DNA of 64,000 bases from Candidatus Giovannonibacteria bacterium (GCA_016186825.1 JACPKW010000004.1:130237-194236); one strand, 5' to 3'; shown: positions 30,401 through 45,430, counted from the first letter of the stretch. Made by a program: numbers and translations. The notes: generated from the sequence alone by a model not told the origin.

Positions 30401-33200
30401 CGGAGTTCAAATCGCAACTTCAAACACAACTTCATATTCTGACACTGGGCTTGCTCCGTCGACCGCATATTCATATACAGTTTCGGCATTCGATGCGGCT
30501 GGCAACAACTCTTCGCAATCAACAAGCGCAAGTGCAACAACGCAACCGGCGTCTGTTCCCGTAGATACCACCGCTCCTGTTATTTCAGGAATATCATCTT
30601 CTGGAATTACATCTTCTTCTGCAAATATTTTGTGGAACACAAACGAGATGTCTACGCACCAAGTCGAATACGGGCCAACTGCTTCCTATGGACAGTTAAC
30701 CACAGAAAATACGGCAATGATGACTTCTCACTCCGAAACAATTTCGAATCTTCAGTCTGGCTCAACATACAACTTCCGCGTAAAGTCCAAAGATGCCGCA
30801 GGAAATCTTGCAATCTCCTTAAATTCGAGCTTCAAGACTTTGAATGCTCCGGATAACATTCCACCAAATGCGATAAGCAATCTTTCGTCATCCGAGATCC
30901 AAACAAATTCTCTCAAGCTTTCTTGGACTTCGCCCGCAGATCCGCCTTCGAATTCAGCCGCGGACAAATATGATATCCGATACTCTATGAGCTTGCTTGG
31001 CGAATCAAATTGGCAGCAGGCTACCAGAGTTACCGGAGAGCCCGCGCCAGCCTCGCCCGGAGCCAATCAATCATATATTTTGGCTGGGCTCGCTCCACAG
31101 ACTACATATTATATTGCAATCAAATCTTCGGATGCGAAAAATAACGATTCGGCGCTCTCAAATGTATTACAAATTACAACTTTAGCTTCCGAACCTCCGC
31201 CCGCTATTCTTTCAGTGTCGCCGATTACTGCAAACATCCAGGACGTAAATTCTACTTTGCCGGGCGTCCAGTTCTACGAAGGAATGACGGTCAGATATTC
31301 TTCTTCTGCTTCGGGGCATGCGTCTTGGGAGTGGCTGTATTCGGTCAACAACGGAACACCAATTTCGTATCTTAAGGGCACAGGCAATGTGGAAGATGCC
31401 ATGTTCAAATATCCTTCAGGCAGTGCGGGAACTTCATACAAATGGATTTTCAGAGCTTCAAGTGGGACACAAATTAAAGAAGAGGCTCTCGATGTTTCGA
31501 TTATTTCTAGGCAGACTGGGACAAATCCAGCAGTTATTTCAAATATCGCTTTCGATATCGGACAAACTAGCGCAACTGTTACTTGGGAAACCGATATTCC
31601 TGCCTCCACTCAATTGGAATTCGGCGCACATAATCTTCTCGGCTCCCTGTCGCCTGAACTAAATTCGACCTCTTTGGTAACCGCGCACTCTGTGACTTCT
31701 TCAAATCTTATTCCTTGCGCCCGTTATTACTTCCGCGTCCGTTCGCGCGATTCTTCCAATAACATTTCCGCTGGCGCTCCATATTCATATTCTACCAAAG
31801 GCTGTCTTGGCGGGGCTGATGTTGCATCAAGCACAGAAAAACTTATCCGGCGCGCCGAAGGCGGAACGATCAAGCAGAAAGATAAGGGCTCTGGTTTGAC
31901 GATCACTGCTCCGATAAATTTTGCCTCCGATGATGCGGTATTCCAAATTCAAAAGCTTTCTAATAAAGTTTTCAGCACCGCGCAACTTCCTCAAAACAAA
32001 AAATTAATCGGCGATCACATATATGAATTGAAAGCTCTCTCGGATTCTTCTGTGGCAATTTCAGCTTTTGCTGATTCGCTCACGCTCACAGTCAAATATA
32101 ATTCTGCTGATCTGGGGAATATTAATCCTTCTACACTCCGGCTTTACCGCTGGGTATCTTCAAGTAACTCCTGGCAGGTTCTGTCGTGCACTGAAAGCAC
32201 TGCAGATGCTCAAGTGATCTGTTTGACAAATTCATTTTCATCATATGCTTTGCTCGGCGATGAAACGCAAACAACTGGAGGCGGGGGATCTTCGGGTGGC
32301 GGAACTTCAAGCGGGGGAGGAGGTATTATTATGCAAAGCGTTTCTGCTCCAGCCTCCTTCAAAGCTATCGGCGCCCCGAACCAGATTATTCTTTCCTGGT
32401 CTAATCCTAAAGATGCAAATTTTGTCCGCGCGCGCATTATTAAAAACCAAAACAGGGTTCCTCTTTCCGCAAATGACGGGGAAATAATATATGAAGGCGC
32501 AAAAGAAGAATTTATTGATACGAACGTAACTCTCAATGCCGTTTATAATTATGGCGTCTATGCGCTAGATCGGAATTTAAATGCCTCTGCGCTTTCGACA
32601 CTTATCGTTAAGGCTGGCGAAAAGAGCGAAGCAGACGCCCTTAAAGCTTTGAGCCAAATTGTTTCTGCCTCGAAAGTGACTGCACCAGTGACTTCCCCTG
32701 GGGCGTTATTAACTGGTCCTTTTGCTTTCGGTATTCGAAGCGAACAAGTAAAAATTCTTCAGGAATGGCTCGCGCGCGACAAATTGATCTATCCAGAGGC
32801 AAAAATCACTGGCTATTACGGCCCCGCAACATTTGCCGCAGTCAAACGCTTTCAGAAGAAATATGGAATTGCCCAAATTGGAATCGCAGGCCCCAAGACC
32901 AGAATGAAATTGAACGCACTTTATAATTCATCAGTAGTGTCCACACCTGAAGCGCCAAGTTCGAGCGAGACAATTATACTTCTCCGCGGTCCATTTTACC
33001 TCGGTGCCAGAGGTAATGAAGTTAAAGTGCTCCAGCAGCTGCTCGCGAAAGATAATGCCATTTATCCGGAAGGACGCGTAACTGGATATTACGGAGCACT
33101 TACATTTCAAGCTGTGAAAAGATTTCAGGCTAAATATGGAATTTTACAAACAGGAATCGCAGGGCCTAAAACCAGGGCTAAACTAAACGAGATATATTAA
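21459..33200 (+). CDS. giant surface protein (3913 aa): divergent N-terminal anchor module, 3 LamG domains, at least 5 fibronectin-III repeats, Kelch-like propeller region, unassigned ~800-aa central region, Gly-rich linker, two C-terminal peptidoglycan-binding (PG_binding_1-like) domains
   Basis: [24 protein letters not shown] anchor. LamG domains recognised by HWKFDEG...[10 protein letters not shown], three times. FN3 repeats [26 protein letters not shown]...AAYDAAGN. Tandem C-terminal LxGPFxxGxRxxxVKxLQxxLA...YGPATFxAVKRFQxKYGI repeats. Confidence 0.85.
   Translation: [3913 protein letters not shown]
22369..22640 (+). repeat. intragenic FN3-encoding DNA repeat, copy 1 of 4 (~270 bp, high identity)
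   Basis: Near-identical nucleotide blocks (ccggatactac...gcaacgacgcag) recur at 22663, 26235 and 30274. Confidence 0.7.
22663..22937 (+). repeat. intragenic FN3-encoding DNA repeat, copy 2
   Basis: Same block as copy 1, translated [44 protein letters not shown]. Confidence 0.7.
26235..26507 (+). repeat. intragenic FN3-encoding DNA repeat, copy 3
   Basis: Translated [57 protein letters not shown]. Confidence 0.7.
30274..30548 (+). repeat. intragenic FN3-encoding DNA repeat, copy 4
   Basis: Translated [60 protein letters not shown]. Confidence 0.7.
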
Positions 33201-33220
33201 AGATTCTATTACTGAATGGG

Positions 33221-33958
33221 CTAGTCTGGTTTTTCCAAAGCGTTTTTTTCGAACGCTTTGACAATCGGACCTAGATCGCCGTCGAGCATGCGCTCGATAT
33301 TATGAAAGCTTTTCTTTATGCGGTGATCCGTGATCCGATCCTGCATAAAATTATACGTGCGGATTTTTTCTGAACGGTCCTGTGTTCCGATCTGCTCGCG
33401 GCGTTCTTTTGAGAGCGCTTCGGATTCTTTGCGATTTTTTTCGTCGAGAAGTTTTGCGCGCAGAACCCCCAGCGCCTTTTCCCTGTTTTTTTGCTGTGAA
33501 CGCTCTTCGCGGGAGGAAACCACGATTCCAGTTGGTTTGTGGAGAATTCTTACAGCGGACTCAACTTTGTTTACATTTTGGCCGCCTGGACCGCCTGCGC
33601 GCGAGAAAGTAACCTCGAGATCGGATTCTTTCACCTCGATTTCTTTTTCCGCGGCGGCTTTTAAAATTGCGACAGAGGCAGTAGAGGTATGAATTCTGCC
33701 CGACTTTTCTGTTTTTGGAATCCTCTGAATGCGATGCACTCCCGATTCCTGCTTAAGCGATTTCCATACGTCCGGACCGGAAATTTCAGCGACAACTTCT
33801 TTATAGCCTCCGAGGTCGCTTTTGGATTCATCAAGCAGTTTGAAAGACCACTGCCTGCTTTGAGAAAAATTTTGGTACATTCTTAAAAGCTCTCTCGCAA
33901 AGAGAGAGGCTTCCTGACCGCCTGCACCGGCGCGTATTTCCAAAATTACAGTCTCCAT
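33221..33958 (-). CDS. prfA: class I peptide chain release factor, RF1-like but lacking N-terminal domain 1 (245 aa)
   Basis: GGQ motif [11 protein letters not shown]. The RF1-type tripeptide region [14 protein letters not shown] aligns with PxT. The protein aligns with RF1 residues ~115-360. Its start ATG overlaps the rpmE stop (TAATG). Confidence 0.75.
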
Positions 33959-34215
33959 TATTTTCCGGTTTGTGATTTCTTGCGGGCTTTCTTTGCGCTG
34001 GAAGGCTCGGTACTGGCTTTTGCCTGCCTGGCTTTGAATTTTTCAACTCGTCCGGCAGTGTCAATAAGCTTCGCCTTGCCGGTATAAAAAGGATGGCAAT
34101 TGGAGCAAATTTCAATTTCAATTTTTTCTTTAGTGGATCCAACTTTTATAACATTTCCGCAAGCGCATTTTATTTGAGCGTTAGGAAAATATTGAGGATG
34201 CGTATCTGTTTTCAT
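33958..34215 (-). CDS. rpmE: ribosomal protein L31
   Basis: MKTDTHPQY...CACGN...[10 protein letters not shown] is the L31 zinc-ribbon pattern. Confidence 0.85.
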
Positions 34216-35063
34216 TATTGTTTTGAAAATATTTTGTCTCGCTGAAGGTATGTTTTCATTGGTAAAATATTAACAGAATTTAATTTGGACTGCAATAGGG
34301 CGCGGACCTCTATAATTTGTTTGAGCTCTTTTAAATTTTTAATTGTGAAGTCTGGTTTGATTGAGGCAGTATCTTCATTCGCGCTTTCGTTTAACAGCAA
34401 ACATGTTTGTAGCCCAACTTTTTTTGCGAGAATAATATCATCTGATAATTTATCTCCCACATGAAGAATTTCACTTGGCTTAGCTTCGAAATGATTTATA
34501 AGTTTCTTAAAAATTTTATGCCCGCTTTTGCGATCATGCTCTTGGCTTGTAAGGACGAGATCGAAGTATTGGAGGAGCCCCCAATTCTGAAGCATTATTC
34601 TTCGCATAAGTGTCGGGAAAATAGAGTCCGATACCAGCGCCACTTTAATTTCACGTGTTGCAAAAAATTTAAAAATTGATGCAAGGTTTTCTGTAAGAGG
34701 ATACATTGTATTACTGTCAAACAGCGCATCAAGTACTATTTCATCCGCATATAGATGCTTTATTCCTTTGTTTCTTAAATAATTCTCAAAGTAAGGAATC
34801 AATCTGCCTGATTTATGAAATATTCTTTCCGCTCGATCATGTTGTATAAAATCTGCAAACAATCCATACATCTCTTTTTTGTCTACATTATTTTTTCCTA
34901 GTTTAGTTCTTAAATTTCTATATAAGCTTTCTTCATAGTTATATTTTCGCTTGCCCATTGGGAAAACGCCGTCGAAGTCAAACGATATTATTTTTATAGG
35001 CGTTAGAACTTTCCGCATGGAAGAATTATAACACTTCTTTGGATTATCGAAATTAAAGTTCAA
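34215..35063 (-). CDS. HAD-superfamily hydrolase
   Basis: Motif I FDFDGVF, and motif [11 protein letters not shown]. Confidence 0.7.
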
Positions 35064-35181
35064 AATTCAGCTCGCTTGCAATTTTTTGCAGTTGAAGCTA
35101 TTATTTAGTTAATTTAGCGGAGATTTTGCTTAAAGCTTAGCTTGAGCGTTTTTTATTTAAAGTTGCTTTTTCTGGGCTTTT

Positions 35182-35949
35182 ATGAATAATTTAATTGTGG
35201 AGAACGAAGAAATTAAAGATCCGCCATCTGGCGGAAAAGAGGAAATATTTCCAAGTGCTGACGCCGAACTAGAAGCGATGTTCCGGGCTGGCTTGCATTT
35301 TGCGTATTCCAGGTCGCGCCGTCACCCGAAAATGTCTTCTTATATGTATGGCATTAAGAATAATGTGGAAGTTTTCGAGCTTTCAAAGGTGCGCGAGTGT
35401 TTAAGGTCAGCGGAAGGCTTTTTTGCGAAAATCGGCGAGCGAAAGGGCAATATTCTGCTCGTGGGAACTAAACCTTCGGTGGGGCCGCTTGTTAAGGAAA
35501 TGGGTTTAAATCTGAATTTGCCGTACGTTTCAGAACGCTGGGTTGGGGGGACTCTCACAAACGGAAAAGTTATCCGCGAGCGAATTAAGTTTTTTGAAGA
35601 TTTAAAAAGAAAAAAAGAGTCGGGCGAGCTCGAGAAATATACGAAAAAGGAGCGGCTCGGTTTATCGAGAAAAATTGAAGCGCTCGAAAGATATCTTGGA
35701 GGAATTGTGAACATTAAAAACGACCTCGATGCTATTTTTATTGTGGATCCGAAAGAGGAAAAAACGGCGCTCCACGAAGCGCTCAATGTAAAACTTCCCA
35801 TTGTTGCGATTCTTTCATCCGATAATGATCCGAGCGGAATTCTTTACCCCATTCCTTCGAATGACACTGCTGTTTCAAGCATCGCCTATATAACTCAAAG
35901 ACTTACGGAGGCTTACCGGGATGGAAGCCGCAGAGCATTGGCTTCTTAA
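35182..35949 (+). CDS. rpsB: ribosomal protein S2
   Basis: MFRAGLHFAYSRSRRHPKM and LLVGTKPS...YVSERWVGGTLTN. Confidence 0.9.
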   Translation: MNNLIVENEEIKDPPSGGKEEIFPSADAELEAMFRAGLHFAYSRSRRHPKMSSYMYGIKNNVEVFELSKVRECLRSAEGFFAKIGERKGNILLVGTKPSVGPLVKEMGLNLNLPYVSERWVGGTLTNGKVIRERIKFFEDLKRKKESGELEKYTKKERLGLSRKIEALERYLGGIVNIKNDLDAIFIVDPKEEKTALHEALNVKLPIVAILSSDNDPSGILYPIPSNDTAVSSIAYITQRLTEAYRDGSRRALAS

Positions 35950-37618: not shown

Positions 37619-38902
37619 GTGCAAGAATTTATGCCGAACCAAATTAAACCGGATCCAACCAAGCCGGAAATTTTAATTTTGGGCGGTGGATTTGGAGGTG
37701 TGCGCGCCGCATTAAGACTCGCGCGGAAGCTTCCGAGCTCGAAAATCACCGTTGTGGATAAAAGAAAATACCACGGCTATTATCCGGATTTATACGAACT
37801 TGCGGCGGCTGTTTTCCCGAAAAAAAATAATCTCGGCAAAAAAGATTTTCTTAAGCTCAAATCAACTGTTGCGCTTCCATTTAAATATATTTTTTCAGGT
37901 TTTCCGAATATCAAATTTGTCGAAGGCACGGTGCTCGATATCGATTTTGAAGCCGGCAAGGTTTTTCTTGAAAATAATGAAGCGCTTTCATACAACTTTT
38001 TGATTCTTGCATTGGGGTCCGAAACTAATTTCTTTAATATTCCGCATTTGGGCGAGAAAGCGCATGAGCTGAAAAATACTACCGATGCTTTGAATATCAG
38101 GAGCGCTTTTGAAGAAATTTTGGATACTCGCGGAAAAAATACAATTATTTCGGTGATTATTGCGGGCGGGGGATTTACGGGATGCGAACTTGCGGGAGAG
38201 CTTGCGCGGAGCCTTAATGCGTTTGCGAGAATATACAACCATCCTCGAGAAAATTTTTCAATTACGATGATTGAAGGATCAAGCGTTCTGCTCGGGCCTA
38301 CCGATCCATGGATTCAAAAGAAAGCAAAGGAGCGTCTGGAAGATTTGGGGGCAATAATAAAATTGAACAGTTTTATTGTTGACGTGAAAGGCGATAAAAT
38401 TGTTTTGAAAGACGGATCTGAAATCAGATTCGATCTCTTGATTTGGACAGCGGGCGTGCGCCCGAATCAGCTTTTGGAAAACATCAAGGTTAAGCTCGAA
38501 AAAAACGGCTGCGTTGGAACGGATAAAAATCTCCGCGCGCTCCCTTTTAAAAATGTATTCGCTATAGGCGATATGTGTTTTTCAAAAAACCCTGAAACAG
38601 GGAAGCCACTTCCAATGACTGCGCAGGTTGCCATGCTCGAAGCAGACTATATTGGAAAATATATTTCAAAAATGGTCTCTGGAAAAAATTATAAAGACTT
38701 TGAGCCTACGGTAGGGCGTTTTATTATTCCGCTTGGAGGGAAATATGCTCTGGCGGATCTCGGCATTATGAAAATTTCCGGTTTTCTTCCGTGGTTTTTG
38801 AAACGGATCGTTGCTCTTAAATATTTCGCATCAATAATGCCTTTTGGAAGAGCTTTTAAAATCTGGAAACGAGGACTTGGAATTTTTATTGCAAACGATT
38901 GA
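37619..38902 (+). CDS. type II NADH dehydrogenase (NDH-2)-like FAD-dependent pyridine nucleotide-disulfide oxidoreductase
   Basis: Two Rossmann motifs, ILILGGGFGGV and IIAGGGFTGCELAGEL, plus a C-terminal amphipathic region. Confidence 0.75.
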   Translation: MQEFMPNQIKPDPTKPEILILGGGFGGVRAALRLARKLPSSKITVVDKRKYHGYYPDLYELAAAVFPKKNNLGKKDFLKLKSTVALPFKYIFSGFPNIKFVEGTVLDIDFEAGKVFLENNEALSYNFLILALGSETNFFNIPHLGEKAHELKNTTDALNIRSAFEEILDTRGKNTIISVIIAGGGFTGCELAGELARSLNAFARIYNHPRENFSITMIEGSSVLLGPTDPWIQKKAKERLEDLGAIIKLNSFIVDVKGDKIVLKDGSEIRFDLLIWTAGVRPNQLLENIKVKLEKNGCVGTDKNLRALPFKNVFAIGDMCFSKNPETGKPLPMTAQVAMLEADYIGKYISKMVSGKNYKDFEPTVGRFIIPLGGKYALADLGIMKISGFLPWFLKRIVALKYFASIMPFGRAFKIWKRGLGIFIAND

Positions 38903-39452
38903 CCGCTTTTTTTGACACGAAATACAAAGTGCCGAACGCCGCGCCTCCGAATAAATCCAACATCAAATCATCCGCGGTATCGGGACCGTCGCCCAGACGA
39001 AGTTGGCGGCCATGCCAAAAGCGGTCCTCAAGGTATTCTTCTATTTCATACAAAGATCCAAAAAGCCCAACGAAAGCAAGCCCTGCAAGGATTACAAATA
39101 AAAGCGGCGTACGCAGATTGTTCAGCGCTATGCCTCTATTTATAAATGTAAGGGCGATTGCCATGATGATCGCACCTCCGAGAAAATGCATAAACTGGTC
39201 GTAGAACCAGTATTGTCCGTAAAGGCCCGCAATATCGCCCAATGCGTCAAGCCAAAGGCCGGCCGCGGATAAAATATAGCCGGCGGGGGACATGAGCGAG
39301 AATATATTCAGAATTTCGAGAACAATAAGACTAAATCCCGAGGTAACTATGAGGCCAAGCCATGAAAATTCTAGGGGAATTGCTAAAATACCGGCGAAAT
39401 TGAGGAGTTCGAATACAATTAAAGCTATTATTATTAGTCGTGCAAACTGCAT
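38886..39452 (-). CDS. integral membrane protein, possibly VanZ-like
   Basis: Five or six TM helices. C-terminal DDLMLDLFGGAAFG resembles the VanZ-family motif. Weak assignment. Confidence 0.5.
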   Translation of the reverse strand: MQFARLIIIALIVFELLNFAGILAIPLEFSWLGLIVTSGFSLIVLEILNIFSLMSPAGYILSAAGLWLDALGDIAGLYGQYWFYDQFMHFLGGAIIMAIALTFINRGIALNNLRTPLLFVILAGLAFVGLFGSLYEIEEYLEDRFWHGRQLRLGDGPDTADDLMLDLFGGAAFGTLYFVSKKAVNRLQ

Positions 39453-39606
39453 ATCCTTATTTTAGCCTAATTCCACTTGCAGGAATAACCTGTAAAATGC
39501 GCCAGATCATAGTAATTAACAGGTAATCCACAGTCAATATTTACATAAATAGCCGAAAGACTATAATCGGACAGATAATGTCCGATTTCGAATTTTATGA
39601 AATTTT

Positions 39607-39894
39607 ATGAAAAAAAGAATAGACTACGGAATTTTATTGATTGAGGAGCTGAAAAAATCTCCGACTGAATTTTTCGATGTGCGGAGGATTGCAAAAAAGA
39701 AAGAGATCCCCGCGGCTTATCTCGAAAAAATTGCCCAGGAATTTAAGCGGAGCGGCCTGATCGAATCGCGCCGGGGCGCAGGCGGAGGATACAGATTGGC
39801 TAAAAATGCATCCATGATGGAAATTTTTGGTATTTCGGAAGAGCTTAGAAGTTTTTGTCCGCTAACGCGAAAAGCAACAAAATTACTCCACTAG
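39607..39894 (+). CDS. Rrf2-family (IscR-like) transcriptional regulator, short
   Basis: RRGAGGGYRLAK wing motif. Located immediately upstream of cysteine desulfurase and IscU. Confidence 0.7.
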   Translation: MKKRIDYGILLIEELKKSPTEFFDVRRIAKKKEIPAAYLEKIAQEFKRSGLIESRRGAGGGYRLAKNASMMEIFGISEELRSFCPLTRKATKLLH

Positions 39895-39904
39895 AAACTT
39901 TTTT

Positions 39905-41188
39905 ATGAAGAATAAAAATAAAATAAAAGTTGGCAAGAGGGTTTATCTGGATCATGCGGCGGCAACGCCAATGGATCCGCGCGTTTTTGAAGCAATGGAG
40001 CCTTTTTGGGTGAAAAATTTTGGAAATGCCGGCGGACTTTATGAAGAAGGAAGAATCGCGAAAGAAGCAGTGCAAAAATCCCGCGAAGCGATTGCACGCT
40101 TGATCTTTGCAAAGCCCGAGGAAATTATTTTTACTTCCGGAGGAACGGAAGCAGATAACCTTGCTATTTTTGGAACTGCTAATTTTTTTAAAAAAGGGCA
40201 CATAATTACTTCCAAATTTGAGCACCATGCAGTTTTGAATCCCTGCTTGGAGCTCGAAAAGCGCGGATTTGACGTTACTTATCTTGAAGTTGGTTCGGAG
40301 GGAATCGTAAATCCGGAAGACTTTAAAAAAGCATTGCGCGCCGATACAGTCTTGGTTTCCATAATGTATGCGAATAACGAGATAGGAACAATCCAGCCGA
40401 TCGCCGAGATAGGGAAAATAATCCAAAACTACAGACTACAATCTGCAAACTCCAGACTGATTTTCCATACCGATGCCTGCCAGGCGGCTGCGTATTTGGA
40501 TATGAACGTAAATGAACTCGGGGTGGATTTGATGACTGTAAACGGTGGAAAAATTTATGGGCCGAAGGGCGCTGGTTTTCTTTATAAAAAAAGCGGAGTG
40601 AAAATAACTCCGATGATTTTCGGCGGCGGGCAGGAAATGCGAATGCGTTCAGGGACTGAAAGCGCTCCTTTAATTGTCGGAATGGCAAAAGCTTTTGAAA
40701 TAGCCGCGCTCGAGCGCGAAAAAGAATCAGCGCGATTGTGCGAGCTAAGGGATTATTTCATCTCTGAACTTTTCCAAAAGATTACGAAGATTGTTCTAAA
40801 CGGACATGACAAAAAAAGATTGCCTAACAACGTGAATGTCTCGATTCTCGATATAGAAGGGGAAGCTCTGATCCTTTTCATGGACGCGCATGGCGTTTCA
40901 TTTTCTACGGGTTCTGCTTGCACTTCGGAATCGCTTGATCCTTCCCACGTAATTTTGGCGCTCGGAAAACCTTATGAATTTGCGCATTCATCCATGCGTT
41001 TCACTTTGGGGCGAAGCACAAACAAAGAAGATTTGGATTATGTCCTAAGCGAACTTCCCAAAACTGTTGCATGGCTCCGGCGCGTCTCTCCGCTAGAGCT
41101 TGATCCGAACGCAGCTTCCATGTCGCATCCCGAAGCGTTTGCAGGAGAAAATTTAAGAGTTAAGGCGAAATCTAAAAGTTATAAGTAG
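39905..41188 (+). CDS. iscS: cysteine desulfurase (IscS/NifS class)
   Basis: VYLDHAAATP, SGGTEADNLAI, and a PLP-Lys region SIMYANNEIGT. Confidence 0.85.
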   Translation: MKNKNKIKVGKRVYLDHAAATPMDPRVFEAMEPFWVKNFGNAGGLYEEGRIAKEAVQKSREAIARLIFAKPEEIIFTSGGTEADNLAIFGTANFFKKGHIITSKFEHHAVLNPCLELEKRGFDVTYLEVGSEGIVNPEDFKKALRADTVLVSIMYANNEIGTIQPIAEIGKIIQNYRLQSANSRLIFHTDACQAAAYLDMNVNELGVDLMTVNGGKIYGPKGAGFLYKKSGVKITPMIFGGGQEMRMRSGTESAPLIVGMAKAFEIAALEREKESARLCELRDYFISELFQKITKIVLNGHDKKRLPNNVNVSILDIEGEALILFMDAHGVSFSTGSACTSESLDPSHVILALGKPYEFAHSSMRFTLGRSTNKEDLDYVLSELPKTVAWLRRVSPLELDPNAASMSHPEAFAGENLRVKAKSKSYK

Positions 41189-41224
41189 TTAATTATTTAA
41201 TAGTGTAAATTAATGGCGTAAATT

Positions 41225-41884
41225 ATGAATGAAAACAAGGCCCCTGAGGTCATCAATCAATTTACAGGTGAAAAATGGTATTATTCCGATACGGTTAAAG
41301 AACATTTTTTTCATCCACGCAATCTTTTATGGGAACGGCCGAAAAATCAAAATGAGTTCGATGCGGAGGGAATGGTGGGAAGCCCTGCCTGCGGAGACAT
41401 GATGCAGATGTGGATGAAAGTTGATCGGAATACTGAACGAGTAATAGATTTGAAATGGAAAACATTCGGGTGTGCTTCGGCGATAGCGGCAACTTCAATT
41501 TATTCTGTGATTCTTACGGAAAATGGGGGAATGACATTGGATGATGCCCTCAAAGTGAAGCCGCAGGATGTAATGAAGCGTTTGGGAGGACTCCCGAATA
41601 GAAAAATTCATTGCTCTGTTTTGGCCGACAAAGCATTTCAAAAAACAGCCAACGACTATTTCCGTAAAACTGGACAAAATCATAGAATAGTAGTTGAAGG
41701 GGCGAGAGTAGTTGATCCCACGCTTAATATTACGGATAAGGATATTGAAGAAGCTGTTTTGGAAGGAGCGCAGACGCTCGACGAAGTTCAGAAGAAATTG
41801 AAAGTTGGAATTGGCGCTTCGGAAGAAGTTAAAACCGATATCGAGTCACTCGTCAGATTCTATTCGGATAAATATTATGGATAA
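41225..41884 (+). CDS. IscU/NifU-type Fe-S scaffold protein with C-terminal extension
   Basis: The three scaffold cysteines lie in GSPACGDMMQ, FGCASAIA and IHCSVLA. Confidence 0.8.
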   Translation: MNENKAPEVINQFTGEKWYYSDTVKEHFFHPRNLLWERPKNQNEFDAEGMVGSPACGDMMQMWMKVDRNTERVIDLKWKTFGCASAIAATSIYSVILTENGGMTLDDALKVKPQDVMKRLGGLPNRKIHCSVLADKAFQKTANDYFRKTGQNHRIVVEGARVVDPTLNITDKDIEEAVLEGAQTLDEVQKKLKVGIGASEEVKTDIESLVRFYSDKYYG

Positions 41885-41954
41885 TGCCCCAATATGCCTC
41901 AAACTAAGTTTGGGGCATTAGAGCGAAGAAAGTCCTGGACATAGTGGAACAAAC

Positions 41955-42218
41955 ATGTCGGAAGAAAATAACCCAGAACAAATAAATAAAACAGTTGAGC
42001 CCGAGATATCTAAGATTGTCGTGGACCGAGATTTATGCATTGGGGCCGCCTCGTGCGTTGCGATTGCGCCCGGGGTCTTTGCTTTGGATAATGAAAACAA
42101 AGCTTATGTTATTGATGAAAAAGGCGCAGACAACGAAACAATTCTCCTAGCCGCCCAGTCATGTCCCACAAGAGCAATTCTTTTATACGATAAAGATGGC
42201 AAACAAATATACCCGTAA
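41955..42218 (+). CDS. small single-cluster ferredoxin
   Basis: CIGAASCV...SCP cysteine pattern. Paralog of 53027..53293. Confidence 0.7.
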   Translation: MSEENNPEQINKTVEPEISKIVVDRDLCIGAASCVAIAPGVFALDNENKAYVIDEKGADNETILLAAQSCPTRAILLYDKDGKQIYP

Positions 42219-42253
42219 ACAGTTTTTAGTTAGTAGTTTAATATATAAACAAA

Positions 42254-42844
42254 ATGAGAGAAATAAAACCACTCAAATATAAAGAACTTAAGGGTTTATC
42301 CGAAAAACAGCTGAAGGAACATCATGACGTTCTTTATGCCGGTTATGTCAAGAAAATTGCGGAGATAGAAGAAAAGCTAAAAAACACAGACGCTAATTCC
42401 GCAAATGCCACTTATTCTGATTTGCGCGAACTGAAAATGGAAGAAACATTCGCTTTAAACGGCGTGAAATTGCATGAAGGCTATTTTGACAATATGATAC
42501 CAGATGGGCCAAAACCGTCCGGTAAAATTTTGGGCTTGATCGAGCGGGATTTCGGCTCTTATGAAAAATGGGAAAGCGAATTTAAAGCGCTGGGGCTCGC
42601 GGCGCGGGGTTGGGCGATCCTCGCTTATGATCTCGACGAAAAAAAATTAAAAAATATTCTTTGCGATTCGCATAATCAGGGAGGGGTTTGGAACAGCATC
42701 GCGCTTTTTATAATGGATGTTTACGAGCATGCCTATTTTATTGATTATGCCACAGGCAGAAAGTCATACATTGAGGCCTTTTTTCGAAATCTGAATTGGG
42801 AATTTGTTAACACCCTGATTGAGAAATACGGCATTGAAACCTAA
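42254..42844 (+). CDS. Fe/Mn superoxide dismutase
   Basis: HHDVLYAGY, and the C-terminal DVYEHAYFIDYATGRKSYIEAFFRNLNWEFV (D-x-W-E-H-A-Y-Y family signature). Confidence 0.8.
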   Translation: MREIKPLKYKELKGLSEKQLKEHHDVLYAGYVKKIAEIEEKLKNTDANSANATYSDLRELKMEETFALNGVKLHEGYFDNMIPDGPKPSGKILGLIERDFGSYEKWESEFKALGLAARGWAILAYDLDEKKLKNILCDSHNQGGVWNSIALFIMDVYEHAYFIDYATGRKSYIEAFFRNLNWEFVNTLIEKYGIET

Positions 42845-43067
42845 AGAGAAAGAAATAATTTCGGTGCTTGAAAATGAGGTCAAACCATTGCTCCAGCTCC
42901 ATCTCGGCTCGCTCGATTTCGTTTCTTTTAAAGATGGGGTGGTTGCGGTGAGGCTCGAAGGGAATTGCAAAGGATGCCCGCTTTCCGAGCTCACTCTAAA
43001 GGCGGGCATTGAAAGCGTTTTGAAAGAAAAATTCAAGGATGTTACTAGCGTTATCGCTGTTGAATGA
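42819..43067 (+). CDS. NifU C-terminal domain (Nfu-type) Fe-S delivery protein
   Basis: GNCKGCPLSELT CxxC motif. The start is uncertain because the ORF overlaps the SOD 3' end. Confidence 0.65.
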   Translation: MRNTALKPKEKEIISVLENEVKPLLQLHLGSLDFVSFKDGVVAVRLEGNCKGCPLSELTLKAGIESVLKEKFKDVTSVIAVE

Positions 43068-44134
43068 GAAGTAATTTATCAAAAAACTTCATAAAGCTTC
43101 TTGTTTTAATTTTAATGGCTGGGGCGGCTCTTTTTTTTGTGCGGCCAGAGAAGGAAACAGCAGAGAATTTAAAAGATATTAGCCAAGAAAAAATAATTTC
43201 TGAAAAAAACTCGGGAGTTGCCGAAAATATTTTGGGGGAAGACAAAGAATTAGCGACGACGACTCAAAATAATAAAAAAGATGAACTGGCAAGCGCTAAA
43301 ATATCTGCCGACCGGCTGAAAAAAATTTCGCAAGAATTGGAAGTTCTTCAAAAAACTATTAACTCTTTAACTCCGCCCGCCTCGCTAGAAAAACCAAAAT
43401 TAAAAAGCGACCTCGTTTACGCGTCCGGTTTGGGGGCCTTGGTAAACATATTATGCAATGACACGGAAAACGGTTATTACATTTCTGCTTCGGGCGCCAT
43501 CATTGACCCCAAAGGGTATATTTTAACGAACGCTCATGTTGCGGAAAATTTTTCACATAAGGGAGTAATCTGCGTAATCAGGCGCGGTTCTCCCGCAGTT
43601 TCTTTCGCGCGCGCAAAAGTCGTATTTATGCCGGATGTCAGTGATAAAATTTCTGCGACTGAAGTCCCCCTTAGAGATATTGCGATTTTAAAAATAACAA
43701 GCGATCTTTCAGGGAAACCTTTTTCGGAGGTTTTTTCTTATTTTGAATTTGATCCTGACTATTCAATGAAAGAGGGCGAAGTATTATATTCATTGGGATT
43801 CCCGAATGAATTTTTAGGCTCCGAGGCGATTTTAAAAAATACAACGATTCTTTTAAGTCTCGGCTCGGTTGAGAATCTTTTAAATATCGACCAAAGCGAA
43901 AATATTGCCGAGGCGGCCTACATGAAAGGAGCAATTTCTGCCCAACAAGGCTCTTCCGGAGGAATTTTTGTTGATACTTATAGTGGAAATATTGTCGGAT
44001 TATTTGTTGCCCTTACACAAGGAGAAACAACCTCTGAGCGCAAAGAGTTTATATTTTTGTCGAGTTATGTGGATAGAATAATGAGAGAAAAAACTGGTCT
44101 TTCACTAAAAGAATTTTTGGCACAAAATCCATAA
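43064..44134 (+). CDS. membrane-anchored trypsin-like serine protease
   Basis: His in ILTNAHVAE, Ser in QQGSSGGIFVD. N-terminal TM helix. Confidence 0.7.
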   Translation: MRSNLSKNFIKLLVLILMAGAALFFVRPEKETAENLKDISQEKIISEKNSGVAENILGEDKELATTTQNNKKDELASAKISADRLKKISQELEVLQKTINSLTPPASLEKPKLKSDLVYASGLGALVNILCNDTENGYYISASGAIIDPKGYILTNAHVAENFSHKGVICVIRRGSPAVSFARAKVVFMPDVSDKISATEVPLRDIAILKITSDLSGKPFSEVFSYFEFDPDYSMKEGEVLYSLGFPNEFLGSEAILKNTTILLSLGSVENLLNIDQSENIAEAAYMKGAISAQQGSSGGIFVDTYSGNIVGLFVALTQGETTSERKEFIFLSSYVDRIMREKTGLSLKEFLAQNP

Positions 44135-44197
44135 TTTTATAACGATTTTTCTTGATTTTTCGTTATTTTTCTGATAATATAAAAATAGCGAAAATTT

Positions 44198-45430
44198 ATG
44201 GAAAATCTTACGAAAACACAGCTTATACTTCTGGTCCTGCTTGTAAGTTTTGTTACTTCAATGGTGACTGGAATTGTTTCAGTTTCTCTTACTTCGCAAA
44301 ATCCGCCCGGATTAACTCAAACCATTCAGCGTGTTATAGGGCAAACGCCTACAATCGAACCGGAAACTTTGGACAAAGTTCTGACGCAGGAGGAAATCAC
44401 GATTCAGCTCGTAAAAAATGTAACCCCCGCTGTTGTAAGCGTTATCGCTACCAAGGATGTTCCTGTTATTGAACAATACTTTGTGAACCCTTTTGAGGGC
44501 GACAATTTCTTCCAGCAGTTTTTAACGCCGGATTTCTTGGTTCCGCAATATCGCCAGCGCGGGACGGAGAAAAGACAGATTTCTGCCGGAACGGGTTTTT
44601 TGATTTCGTCTGACGGCATGATTGTAACAAACCGGCATGTCGTCGAAGACGCGGAAGCCGAATACACAGTTATAATGAATGACGGAAAGAAAATAACCGC
44701 AAAAGTGCTTGCGCGCGATCCGGTTCAGGACATTGCCGTGATAAAAATTGAAGGTGGCGGCTATCTGTATATCCCGCTTGGGAATTCCGATTCTTTGCAA
44801 GTGGGCCAGAGCGTGGTTGCGATTGGAAATGCGCTTGGAGAATTTCAGAACACGGTTTCGACTGGGGTAATTTCTGGGTTGCGCCGGACGGTAGTTGCTG
44901 GCGGAATCTCTTCCGGTGTTGAAAAACTTCAGCAGGTAATTCAGACTGATGCCGCAATCAATCCGGGAAATTCGGGCGGTCCGCTTTTGGATCTGACGGG
45001 CAGGGCAATCGGGATAAATGTCGCGATGGCCTCGGGTGCGGAAAACATTGGTTTTGCCTTGCCGATAAATGCGGTAAAAAAAGCGATCAATGACGTAAAA
45101 TCTTTCGGCAGAATCGTTTATCCGTTTTTGGGCGTTAGGTATGTGACGATAACGCCTGCCATGAAAACCGAGAAAAAGCTTGCGGTTGATTATGGAGCGC
45201 TCTTAATGTCCTCCGGCGCGGAAAATGCGGTAATCGCGAATTCTCCCGCTTCGAAGGCCGGGCTCAAAGAAGGAGATATCGTGCTCGAATTCGAAGGAGT
45301 GAAAATTACACAGGATAATACGCTCGGCGACCTGATTGCGCGAAAAAAAGTGGGCGATAAAGTTAAATTAAAAATCTTGAGAGAAGGCAAGGAATTTACG
45401 GTCGAAGCAACACTTGAAGAAAGGAAATAA
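44198..45430 (+). CDS. HtrA/DegP-family serine protease with PDZ domain
   Basis: MIVTNRHVVEDAE, NPGNSGGPLLD, and PDZ GLKEGDIVLEFEGVKI. Confidence 0.85.
   Translation: MENLTKTQLILLVLLVSFVTSMVTGIVSVSLTSQNPPGLTQTIQRVIGQTPTIEPETLDKVLTQEEITIQLVKNVTPAVVSVIATKDVPVIEQYFVNPFEGDNFFQQFLTPDFLVPQYRQRGTEKRQISAGTGFLISSDGMIVTNRHVVEDAEAEYTVIMNDGKKITAKVLARDPVQDIAVIKIEGGGYLYIPLGNSDSLQVGQSVVAIGNALGEFQNTVSTGVISGLRRTVVAGGISSGVEKLQQVIQTDAAINPGNSGGPLLDLTGRAIGINVAMASGAENIGFALPINAVKKAINDVKSFGRIVYPFLGVRYVTITPAMKTEKKLAVDYGALLMSSGAENAVIANSPASKAGLKEGDIVLEFEGVKITQDNTLGDLIARKKVGDKVKLKILREGKEFTVEATLEERK

What the first reader, a model, noticed from the sequence alone, without database searches (positions are those of the whole stretch)
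33221..34215. RF1-type release factor missing its entire N-terminal domain, translationally coupled to rpmE (L31)
The 245-aa product aligns with RF1 domains 2-4 (codon-recognition PKT tripeptide, GGQ) and starts at the equivalent of RF1 residue ~115. The upstream in-frame sequence is occupied by rpmE in another frame with a TAATG overlap, so no missed exon is possible. Domain 1 contacts the L7/L12 stalk and RF3. A naturally domain-1-less class I RF is reminiscent of PrfH but retains RF1-like recognition elements. It may reflect ribosome simplification in this lineage or a second specialised factor.
Basis: partly seen in the sequence, partly recalled or inferred. Interest (0 to 1): 0.55.

Follow-up and report, generated by a model that had tools for sequence, protein, structure and literature searches.

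The report
Release factor 1 lacking domain 1
An ultra-small bacterium (Candidatus Giovannonibacteria) encodes, directly after ribosomal protein L31, a well-conserved stop-codon release factor RF1 that lacks the whole N-terminal domain other bacteria use to dock on protein L11 and factor RF3, and related lineages have lost the same domain independently.

Summary
Window 33221-33958 (-) encodes a 245-aa protein that matches RF1 domains 2-4 (T. thermophilus RF1 residues 107-342, E 3.5e-76). All stop-codon-reading residues, PKT and GGQ are intact, and there is no domain 1. Its ATG overlaps the rpmE stop (TAATG), and only 28 unrelated in-frame codons lie upstream.

It is not an error. Four independent SRA assemblies give identical DNA.

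It is not decaying. The 44 distinct short homologues listed (37 aligned) start at the same position, with synonymous sites saturated and pN about 0.17.

It is very likely the organism's ordinary prfA. Sister Giovannonibacteria carry a 313-322-aa RF1 in the same rpsB/tsf | rpmE-prfA slot.

A neighbour-joining tree indicates at least three independent losses of domain 1 in Parcubacteria-type lineages. Most of their relatives already have a shortened domain 1.

Best reading: a minimal RF1 that ends translation at UAA/UAG without L11 or RF3 docking. TAG ends 12 of 49 window ORFs.

Not tested: whether the rest of the genome holds another RF1, what RF2 looks like, and whether prfC is absent.

I found no description of this in the searchable literature. 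It is a new natural variant of a known factor, of moderate interest.

The parts
33221..33958 (-). Short prfA: 245-aa RF1 made of domains 2, 3 and 4 only. Its own stop codon is TAG.
   Evidence: AF2 model (mean pLDDT 70) matches free RF1 structure 1rq0 at TM 0.80 and ribosome-bound T. thermophilus RF1 at E 5.6e-26.
33710..33718 (-). Codons for P81-K82-T83, the RF1 'PxT' stop-codon-recognition tripeptide.
   Evidence: Sequence: the reverse complement reads CCA AAA ACA. Invariant in 37 aligned short forms. Lys is at x in 44/44 short Giovannonibacteria forms against 0/74 long forms.
33578..33586 (-). Codons for G125-G126-Q127, the catalytic GGQ motif.
   Evidence: Sequence: GGC GGC CAA. Invariant in alignment A1.
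33956..33960 (-). TAATG junction, where the rpmE stop TAA overlaps the prfA start ATG by one base.
   Evidence: The same overlap is found in L085 and L006. L089 has a 2-nt gap, and the long-form locus L087 has a 3-nt gap.
33958..34215 (-). rpmE, ribosomal protein bL31, 85 aa. It has the CxC...CxxC zinc-type pattern and a Lys/Arg-rich C-terminal tail.
   Evidence: Pfam PF01197 E 4.5e-28 and NCBIfam NF000612 at 100 bits.
34215..35063 (-). HAD-family hydrolase, first gene of the three-gene co-oriented unit. Its stop overlaps the rpmE start by a second TAATG (34213-34217).
35064..35181 (.). Divergent intergenic region between the HAD-rpmE-prfA unit (-) and rpsB-tsf (+). It is the only sizeable non-coding gap and is presumed to hold the promoters.
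   Evidence: ORF layout. One search found one weak sigma-70-like match on the + strand at 35076-35104, which is no more than chance would give.

Best explanation
This is the organism's ordinary prfA, not an extra factor. It has lost the N-terminal three-helix domain 1 by deletion of about 80 codons at its 5' end, while keeping its place directly behind rpmE.

The 245-aa product is a minimal class I release factor. The domain 2/4 module reads UAA and UAG in the 30S decoding centre, and domain 3 delivers GGQ to the peptidyl-transferase centre.

The part that docks on the L11 N-terminal domain and receives RF3 is missing. The factor must therefore bind without L11 help and leave the ribosome without RF3.

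Expression probably follows rpmE by termination-reinitiation at TAATG within a HAD-rpmE-prfA transcript.

Shown: identity, intact motifs, conservation, positional orthology and recurrent loss. Inferred: UAA/UAG activity, RF3 independence and translational coupling.
For: **Identity**
- RF1 models score far above RF2, PrfH and ArfB: 355, 230, 81 and 50 bits.
- There is 50-60% identity to solved RF1s over domains 2-4.

**Function-bearing residues**
- All are present and invariant in 37 short homologues.
- G13 and E16 correspond to T. thermophilus G116 and E119.
- Q78 corresponds to Q181.
- P81 and T83 correspond to P184 and T186.
- I89, H90 and T91 correspond to I192, H193 and T194.
- GGQ is at 125-127.
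- The correspondence comes from the gap-free alignment. The roles of these residues come from the published RF1-ribosome structures (own knowledge).

**Selection**
- Between short forms, pS is 0.80-0.85 (saturated) and pN is 0.16-0.18.
- All 37 aligned short forms start within a few residues of the same position, most as ME(T/S)(I/V)ILEIRAG.

**Orthology**
- Short genes (window, L085, L089) and long genes (L087, from the complete 651-kb genome CP066687.1) lie in the same slot: tsf<-rpsB<- | ->rpmE->prfA | <-...SLT_2<-L25.
- Short and long Giovannonibacteria RF1s form one clade (92/100), and the short ones form a subclade (90/100).

**Recurrence**
- Other short RF1s are L001-L009 (clade 80/100), L010, and L013 (nested among medium forms, 99/100).
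- All short forms together are monophyletic in only 5/100 replicates.

**Need for RF1 activity**
- TAG ends 12 of 49 window ORFs, including prfA itself. TAA ends 29 and TGA ends 8.

**Precedent**
- Engineered E. coli RF1 without domain 1 releases peptides in vitro and works in vivo.
- Domain 1 is needed only for the RF3 interaction, and prfC is missing from small genomes (Mora 2003 as summarised in PMC1586002).
- Domain 1 contacts the L11 N-terminal domain and RF3 (PMC3677378).
Against: - Only 64 kb of the genome could be searched. A second, full-length RF1 elsewhere cannot be excluded (one search covers the window only).
- The presence and form of RF2, the absence of prfC, and the state of L11 in this genome were not testable.
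- No activity data exist.
- Thermus reportedly lacks RF3 yet keeps domain 1 (own knowledge). Absence of RF3 alone therefore does not explain the loss.
- The protein falls below NCBIfam's curated RF1 cut-offs: 355 bits against 400, and 342 against 423.
- The AF2 model is only moderately confident (mean pLDDT 70), with low confidence at residues 189-223.
- The tree is neighbour-joining on 233 columns, so the number of independent losses could change with a better method.
Confidence: 0.75

Rival explanations
1. It is a second, specialised factor. In this reading the short protein is a PrfH-like or rescue-type paralogue, and a normal full-length RF1 encoded elsewhere does the routine termination.
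For: It lacks domain 1, as PrfH does (PMC1586002). The rest of the genome was not available. NCBI names it only 'PCRF domain-containing protein'.
Against: - It occupies the same syntenic slot as the long RF1 in sister genomes.
- It is 70-76% identical to those RF1s and groups with them (92/100).
- The PrfH model scores 80.6 bits against a cut-off of 166.65.
- All RF1 codon-reading residues are kept, whereas PrfH has diverged there (PMC1586002).
- No rtcB lies nearby.
- No locus fetched carries two RF genes.
Confidence: 0.08
2. It is a split gene. Domain 1 would be encoded as a separate small protein elsewhere and would act in trans.
For: None directly. Domain 1 is a flexible, separately folding helical bundle (PMC1586002).
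Against: - An HMM built from 141 N-terminal domains finds nothing in the six-frame translation of the window or of 15 short-form loci (best E 1.1).
- The same HMM detects the positive controls L087 (E 9.5e-19) and L017 (E 1.3e-16).
- Only the window (64 kb) and the 1.8-21 kb fetched around the other short-form genes were covered.
Confidence: 0.03
3. It is a truncated pseudogene, an assembly error or a mis-called start.
For: Truncated genes are common in MAGs. Two apparently short entries inside the long clade (P0050, P0057) look like mis-called or partial genes.
Against: - The DNA is identical in four independent assemblies.
- 44 distinct short sequences share the same start and intact motifs.
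- There is strong purifying selection.
- Upstream sequence is occupied by rpmE in another frame.
Confidence: 0.02
4. A programmed -1 frameshift at A-AAA-TAA would make an L31-RF1 fusion, with L31 replacing domain 1.
For: The window and L085 have a run of A's before the rpmE stop (GGAAAATAATG and AGAAAATAATG), on which tRNA-Lys could slip -1 into the RF frame (own reading).
Against: - The junction is not conserved. L089 has a 2-nt gap, L006 has G before AAA, and L001, L002, L004, L005, L007 and L008 have no rpmE immediately upstream.
- Long-form genomes have the same rpmE-prfA order.
- bL31 sits at the central protuberance/30S head bridge, far from the L11 stalk (own knowledge).
Confidence: 0.01

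Closest known systems
Canonical bacterial RF1 (prfA; TIGR00019 / NF001859)
   Same: It has the same domains 2, 3 and 4, the PxT and GGQ motifs, all known codon-reading residues and the switch-loop region. It is 50-60% identical to solved RF1s and sits in the same place behind rpmE as in relatives.
   Different: It lacks the whole of domain 1, about 105-112 residues in ordinary bacteria and about 75-80 in most Parcubacteria. It falls below the curated equivalog cut-offs. The x of PxT is Lys.
Engineered N-terminally truncated E. coli RF1 (Mora et al. 2003, as cited in PMC1586002)
   Same: The architecture is the same: domains 2-4 only. That construct keeps codon specificity and peptide release, works in vivo, and cannot stimulate RF3.
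   Different: The E. coli protein is a laboratory deletion with a growth cost. Here the deletion is natural, fixed and conserved across a clade, and it has arisen repeatedly.
PrfH / RFH (TIGR03072), partner of RtcB2
   Same: It is a class I RF homologue without domain 1 that keeps a codon-recognition-type domain and GGQ. It is often translationally coupled to the upstream gene (PMC1586002).
   Different: PrfH has divergent decoding-site residues and always follows rtcB. The window protein scores 80.6 bits against the 166.65-bit cut-off, keeps RF1 residues and follows rpmE.
ArfB / ICT1 / C12orf65 (GGQ-domain rescue factors)
   Same: They share the GGQ peptidyl-hydrolase domain and lack domain 1.
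   Different: These factors also lack the codon-recognition domain 2/4 and carry a basic C-terminal tail. The match here covers only about 35 residues around GGQ.
Medium-length (about 313-329 aa) RF1 of most Parcubacteria, including sister Giovannonibacteria
   Same: It is the orthologous gene, 70-76% identical over domains 2-4, with the same neighbours.
   Different: These keep a reduced domain 1. P0016 residues 13-83 align to S. mutans RF1 62-125, so roughly the first 30 or more residues are missing. They have A, S or T at the x of PxT.

Membership tests
RF1 (prfA) | PCRF plus RF-1 domain architecture (domains 2/4 and 3). | tested here: met
   PF03462 E 2.3e-43, C-terminal half of the profile only (101-194/194). 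PF00472 E 1.8e-38, full length.
RF1 (prfA) | PxT tripeptide and other UAA/UAG-reading residues (T. thermophilus G116, E119, Q181, T186, I192-H193-T194). | tested here: met
   G13, E16, Q78, P81-K82-T83 and I89-H90-T91, by gap-free alignment to 4v4r RF1. All are invariant in 37 homologues.
RF1 (prfA) | Catalytic GGQ motif. | tested here: met
   G125-G126-Q127.
RF1 (prfA) | N-terminal helical domain 1, the L11/RF3-interacting domain. | tested here: not met
   The protein starts at RF1 residue about 104-108. Only 28 unrelated codons are open upstream.
RF1 (prfA) | Score above the curated equivalog cut-off. | tested here: not met
   NF001859 scores 355.2 against 400, and TIGR00019 scores 341.6 against 423.25. 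The shortfall is explained by the missing about 105 model positions.
RF1 (prfA) | Orthology: groups with RF1s and occupies the prfA locus. | tested here: met
   Same slot as the long RF1 in CP066687.1. The clade with Giovannonibacteria RF1s has 92/100 support.
RF1 (prfA) | Peptide release at UAA and UAG but not UGA. | not testable with these tools
   This needs biochemistry. Indirect evidence: TAG ends 12 of 49 window ORFs.
RF1 (prfA) | It is the only RF1-type gene of the genome. | not testable with these tools
   Only the 64-kb window could be scanned, and it holds no other RF.
PrfH (RFH) | Score above the TIGR03072 cut-off. | tested here: not met
   80.6 bits against 166.65.
PrfH (RFH) | Located directly downstream of rtcB. 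| tested here: not met
   The upstream genes are rpmE and a HAD hydrolase. The downstream gene is a convergent giant surface protein.
PrfH (RFH) | Absence of domain 1. | tested here: met
   This is a shared architecture only.
RF2 (prfB) | SPF tripeptide, with the RF2 model as best hit. | tested here: not met
   The tripeptide is PKT, not SPF. TIGR00020 scores 230 bits against 355 for RF1.
ArfB | GGQ domain alone plus a basic C-terminal tail, with no codon-recognition domain. | tested here: not met
   The ArfB model matches only residues 104-139. Domain 2/4 is present.

The most novel reading that the evidence does not exclude
In several Parcubacteria lineages, termination has been stripped to its core. 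There would be no RF3 and no L11-domain 1 docking step, and RF1 would bind and leave the ribosome on its own.

The Lys at the x position of PxT may be a compensatory gain that restores binding energy at the decoding centre. It is found in 44/44 short Giovannonibacteria forms, 5/11 other short forms, and 1/144 RF1s with domain 1.

If RF2 in the same genomes proves to be truncated too, this would define the minimal natural bacterial termination system.
Probability: 0.3. Interest if true: 0.65.

Novelty: new variant of a known kind. Interest (0 to 1): 0.5.

Why it matters
- Domain 1 is present in the RF1 and RF2 of ordinary bacteria, and mitochondrial mtRF1a and mtRF1 also carry N-terminal sequence ahead of domains 2-4. 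Its dispensability has rested on engineered E. coli deletions.
- Here nature has repeated that experiment several times, and the result has been kept under purifying selection. This supports the view that domain 1 is an accessory for L11/RF3-assisted turnover and not part of the core release mechanism.
- These proteins are ready-made minimal RF1s for structural work and for reconstituted or minimal translation systems.
- They flag a further reduction of the CPR translation machinery, beyond the known losses of uL1, bL9 and uL30.
- There is a practical consequence. Such genes fall below curated RF1 thresholds and are annotated only as 'PCRF domain-containing protein', so automated surveys could wrongly score these genomes as lacking prfA.

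Tried and rejected
1. **Another RF in the window.** phmmer with the query and with E. coli RF1 against all six-frame ORFs found only the gene itself.
2. **A stand-alone domain 1.** An N-domain HMM was searched against the window and the short-form loci. It found nothing, while the controls were positive.
3. **Relic of domain 1 in the 28 upstream in-frame codons.** There is no similarity.
4. **L31-RF1 frameshift fusion, or L31 substituting for domain 1.** Rejected because the junction is not conserved, and because rpmE-prfA linkage is equally present with long RF1s.
5. **The genome-contig scan.** It could not be used to look for a second RF in the same genome. It did, however, reveal short RF1s in other lineages.
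6. **RF2, RF3 and L11 of this organism.** I found no route to them with the tools. There is no access to whole assemblies, and top-hit lists cannot be steered to this taxon. They remain untested.
7. **Literature.** Six searches, a seventh that led to the CPR-ribosome paper PMC9297842, and a reading of that paper found no mention of truncated release factors in CPR bacteria.
8. **Promoter and terminator scan of 32900-35400.** It gave no more matches than shuffled sequence.
9. **Clade-specific substitutions, short against long forms.** Only three positions qualify (S18, K67, K82), so there is no broad remodelling.

Full report
**1. What is in the sequence**

On the minus strand, three genes run head to tail.
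- A HAD-family hydrolase lies at 34215-35063.
- rpmE (ribosomal protein bL31, 85 aa) lies at 33958-34215.
- A 245-aa ORF lies at 33221-33958.

Both junctions are TAATG overlaps, at 34213-34217 and at 33956-33960 (read). The unit diverges from rpsB-tsf on the plus strand. It converges, with a 20-nt gap, on a 3913-aa gene.

The 245-aa product matches Pfam PCRF only over profile positions 101-194 of 194, and matches the whole RF-1 domain. NCBIfam gives RF1 355 bits (model positions 105-341 of 347), RF2 230 bits, PrfH 81 bits and ArfB 50 bits. Against solved structures it aligns without gaps to T. thermophilus RF1 residues 107-342 (E 3.5e-76) and to E. coli RF1 111-342.

The reading frame is closed 28 codons upstream of the ATG. 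Those codons contain no start and no RF-like sequence, and they overlap the 3' end of rpmE in another frame.

**2. It is not an artefact or a dying gene**

- Contigs assembled independently from four SRA runs contain exactly the same 1,008 nt across the junction and the gene.
- The protein database holds this exact protein (MBI2609941.1, Candidatus Giovannonibacteria). It also holds dozens of distinct relatives of 228-249 aa at 71-84% identity.
- In an alignment of 37 of them, nearly all start at the same place (ME[TS][IV]ILEIRAG). 82 positions are invariant.
- The invariant positions include every residue known to read the stop codon or to catalyse release: G13/E16, Q78, P81/T83, I89-H90-T91 and G125-G126-Q127. 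The correspondence to T. thermophilus RF1 comes. The roles come from published RF1-ribosome structures (my knowledge).
- Between short genes, synonymous sites are saturated (pS 0.80-0.85) while pN is 0.16-0.18.
- An AlphaFold model (mean pLDDT 70; domain 2 at 85-91) superposes on free RF1 (1rq0, TM 0.80) and matches ribosome-bound RF1 at E about 1e-25.

**3. It is the orthologue of ordinary prfA**

The close homologues fall into two length classes, about 228-249 aa and about 297-323 aa, plus a few of about 350 aa.

Short genes are the window, L085 (GCA_001778665.1) and L089. The long gene L087 comes from the complete 651,549-bp Giovannonibacteria genome CP066687.1. All of them sit in the same place: tsf and rpsB on one strand, then rpmE-prfA on the other, followed by the SLT_2 and L25 genes.

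A neighbour-joining tree was built on 233 shared columns, with 100 bootstraps on 61 taxa.
- All Giovannonibacteria-type RF1s are monophyletic: 92/100.
- The 44 short forms make a subclade: 90/100.
- The 71 medium forms make another subclade: 95/100.

This is the pattern of one gene that lost its 5' part in one sublineage. It is not the pattern of a paralogue. No fetched locus has two RF genes, and the window holds no other RF.

**4. The loss is recurrent, and part of a trend**

I measured the sequence that precedes the equivalent of query residue 4 in RF1 loci of 80 species-representative genomes.
- About 105-112 residues in Cyanobacteria, Bacteroidota and other ordinary bacteria.
- About 74-82 residues in most Parcubacteria/Paceibacteria.
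- 0-23 residues in L001-L010 and L013. These include Liptonbacteria, Jorgensenbacteria, a Nomurabacteria genome, unnamed Patescibacteria, and the complete 829-kb chromosome OY970354.1.

L001-L009 form their own clade (80/100), and L013 is nested among medium-length forms (99/100). All short forms together are monophyletic in only 5/100 replicates. Domain 1 was therefore lost at least three times.

The medium-length forms already lack roughly the first 30 or more residues of domain 1. P0016 residues 13-83 align to S. mutans RF1 62-125.

A search of 1.84 billion cluster representatives lists about ten further short RF1 clusters among the best 150. Some of these may be partial genes.

**5. The rpmE link**

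rpmE lies directly upstream of prfA in 21 of 27 loci with medium-length RF1 and in 10 of 44 with full-length RF1. Several short forms (L001, L002, L004, L005, L007, L008) have no rpmE directly upstream. The linkage is ancestral and unrelated to the truncation.

The one-base overlap, and the lack of a good Shine-Dalgarno sequence before the ATG (ACCGGAAAATAATG), suggest termination-reinitiation coupling. This is an inference.

**6. How it most likely works**

The organism uses all three stop codons. Of 49 window ORFs, 29 end in TAA, 12 in TAG and 8 in TGA, and several of the TGA-ending ORFs have full-length Pfam matches. It therefore needs an RF1 activity for UAG, and presumably has an RF2 elsewhere.

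The short protein retains everything required to recognise UAA/UAG and to hydrolyse peptidyl-tRNA. What it lacks is the helical domain that contacts the L11 N-terminal domain and RF3 domain 3 on the ribosome (PMC3677378).

Engineered E. coli RF1 without this domain keeps codon specificity and release activity, functions in vivo, and only loses the ability to work with RF3. prfC is also absent from small genomes (Mora et al. 2003 as summarised in PMC1586002).

My best explanation, at confidence 0.75, is a minimal but fully functional RF1 that terminates at UAA/UAG and dissociates without RF3. It evolved in a lineage where the RF3/L11-assisted step had already become dispensable.

**7. An unexplained correlate**

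Only three positions distinguish the short from the long Giovannonibacteria forms. The cleanest is the middle residue of PxT.
- Lys in 44/44 short Giovannonibacteria forms.
- Never Lys in 74 long Giovannonibacteria forms.
- Lys in 5 of 11 other short forms.
- Lys in 1 of 70 other RF1s.

These counts are not phylogenetically independent. Even so, the association across at least two loss events hints at compensation, for example an extra contact with the RNA backbone. This is speculation.

**8. Rivals**

- A specialised second factor: 0.08.
- A split gene with domain 1 supplied in trans: 0.03. The domain 1 HMM found nothing locally while the controls scored E 1e-16 to 1e-19.
- A pseudogene or artefact: 0.02.
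- An L31-RF1 frameshift fusion: 0.01.

All are argued against above, but none can be fully closed without the whole genome.

**9. Comparison with what is known, and novelty**

By sequence, motifs, phylogeny and locus this is RF1. By architecture it fails one defining feature, domain 1, and so falls under the curated RF1 thresholds. That is why NCBI calls it 'PCRF domain-containing protein'.

It shares the architecture of PrfH but none of PrfH's family features.

Literature searches found no report of release factors lacking domain 1 in CPR/Patescibacteria. Neither the review of RF diversity (PMC6514570) nor the paper on reduced CPR ribosomes (PMC9297842, found and read) mentions one. The library covers open-access papers only.

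I rate it a new natural variant of a known kind. It is interesting to people who work on termination, on CPR biology and on minimal translation systems. It is not a new mechanism.

**10. Limits**

- I could not inspect the rest of the genome for a second RF1, for RF2, for prfC or for rplK.
- The tree is distance-based.
- No functional data exist.

Noticed in passing
window 8800-33200 (+): Six consecutive ORFs, five of them large (1193, 164, 1274, 945, 625 and 3913 aa). Domains found: Laminin_G_3, seven fn3 repeats, Big_7, beta-helix/pectate-lyase-like, a subtilase S8 and two C-terminal PG_binding_1 domains. They fill the space between the SLT_2/L25 genes and prfA, where other Giovannonibacteria have only a His_Phos_1 gene. 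This looks like a roughly 24-kb lineage-specific block of surface or adhesin-like genes.
   Followed up: partly
window 34213-34217 and 34215-35063 (-): A HAD-family hydrolase precedes rpmE with a second TAATG overlap. It is absent from the corresponding position in L085, L087 and L089, where rpmE directly follows the divergent rpsB region.
   Followed up: partly
window 33710-33718 (-); alignment of 201 RF1s: The middle residue of the PxT stop-codon tripeptide is Lys in 44/44 short Giovannonibacteria RF1s and in 5/11 other RF1s lacking domain 1. It is Lys in only 1/144 RF1s that keep domain 1 (L022). This may be compensation and is unexplained.
   Followed up: partly
homologues P0020, P0022, P0047, P0068, P0070, P0079 and others (equivalent to window residues ~44-53, 33800-33829): About half of the short Giovannonibacteria RF1s (228-230 aa) also lack about 10 residues of domain 2 ([10 protein letters not shown] in the window protein). 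P0005 instead has a 10-residue insertion nearby.
   Followed up: no
L011-L073 (Parcubacteria RF1 loci); P0016: Most Parcubacteria RF1s are only about 313-329 aa. Their domain 1 is about 75-80 residues, against about 105-112 elsewhere, and lacks the N-terminal helix region. The complete loss seen here is the end point of a graded reduction.
   Followed up: partly
P0125, P0126, P0150, P0154, P0167, P0198: Some cluster representatives are RF1-like proteins with no N-terminal domain but 100-280-residue C-terminal extensions. Others have two RF-matching stretches in one 477-481-aa protein. They could be fusions, tandem genes or mis-assemblies.
   Followed up: no
window 33958-34215 (-): bL31 here is 85 aa with a Lys/Arg-rich C-terminal tail (…[24 protein letters not shown]). 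It is 69 aa in L085 and L087 and 80 aa in L089. Tail length does not track the RF1 form.
   Followed up: partly
window 37619-45430 (+): This is a conserved Giovannonibacteria neighbourhood: pyridine-nucleotide disulphide oxidoreductase, Rrf2 regulator, cysteine desulfurase (Aminotran_5), NifU, Fe/Mn superoxide dismutase, two HtrA-like proteases and ClpB. Similar sets of these genes occur in L087 and L090. SOD and Fe-S assembly genes are notable in a supposedly anaerobic, reduced genome.
   Followed up: no
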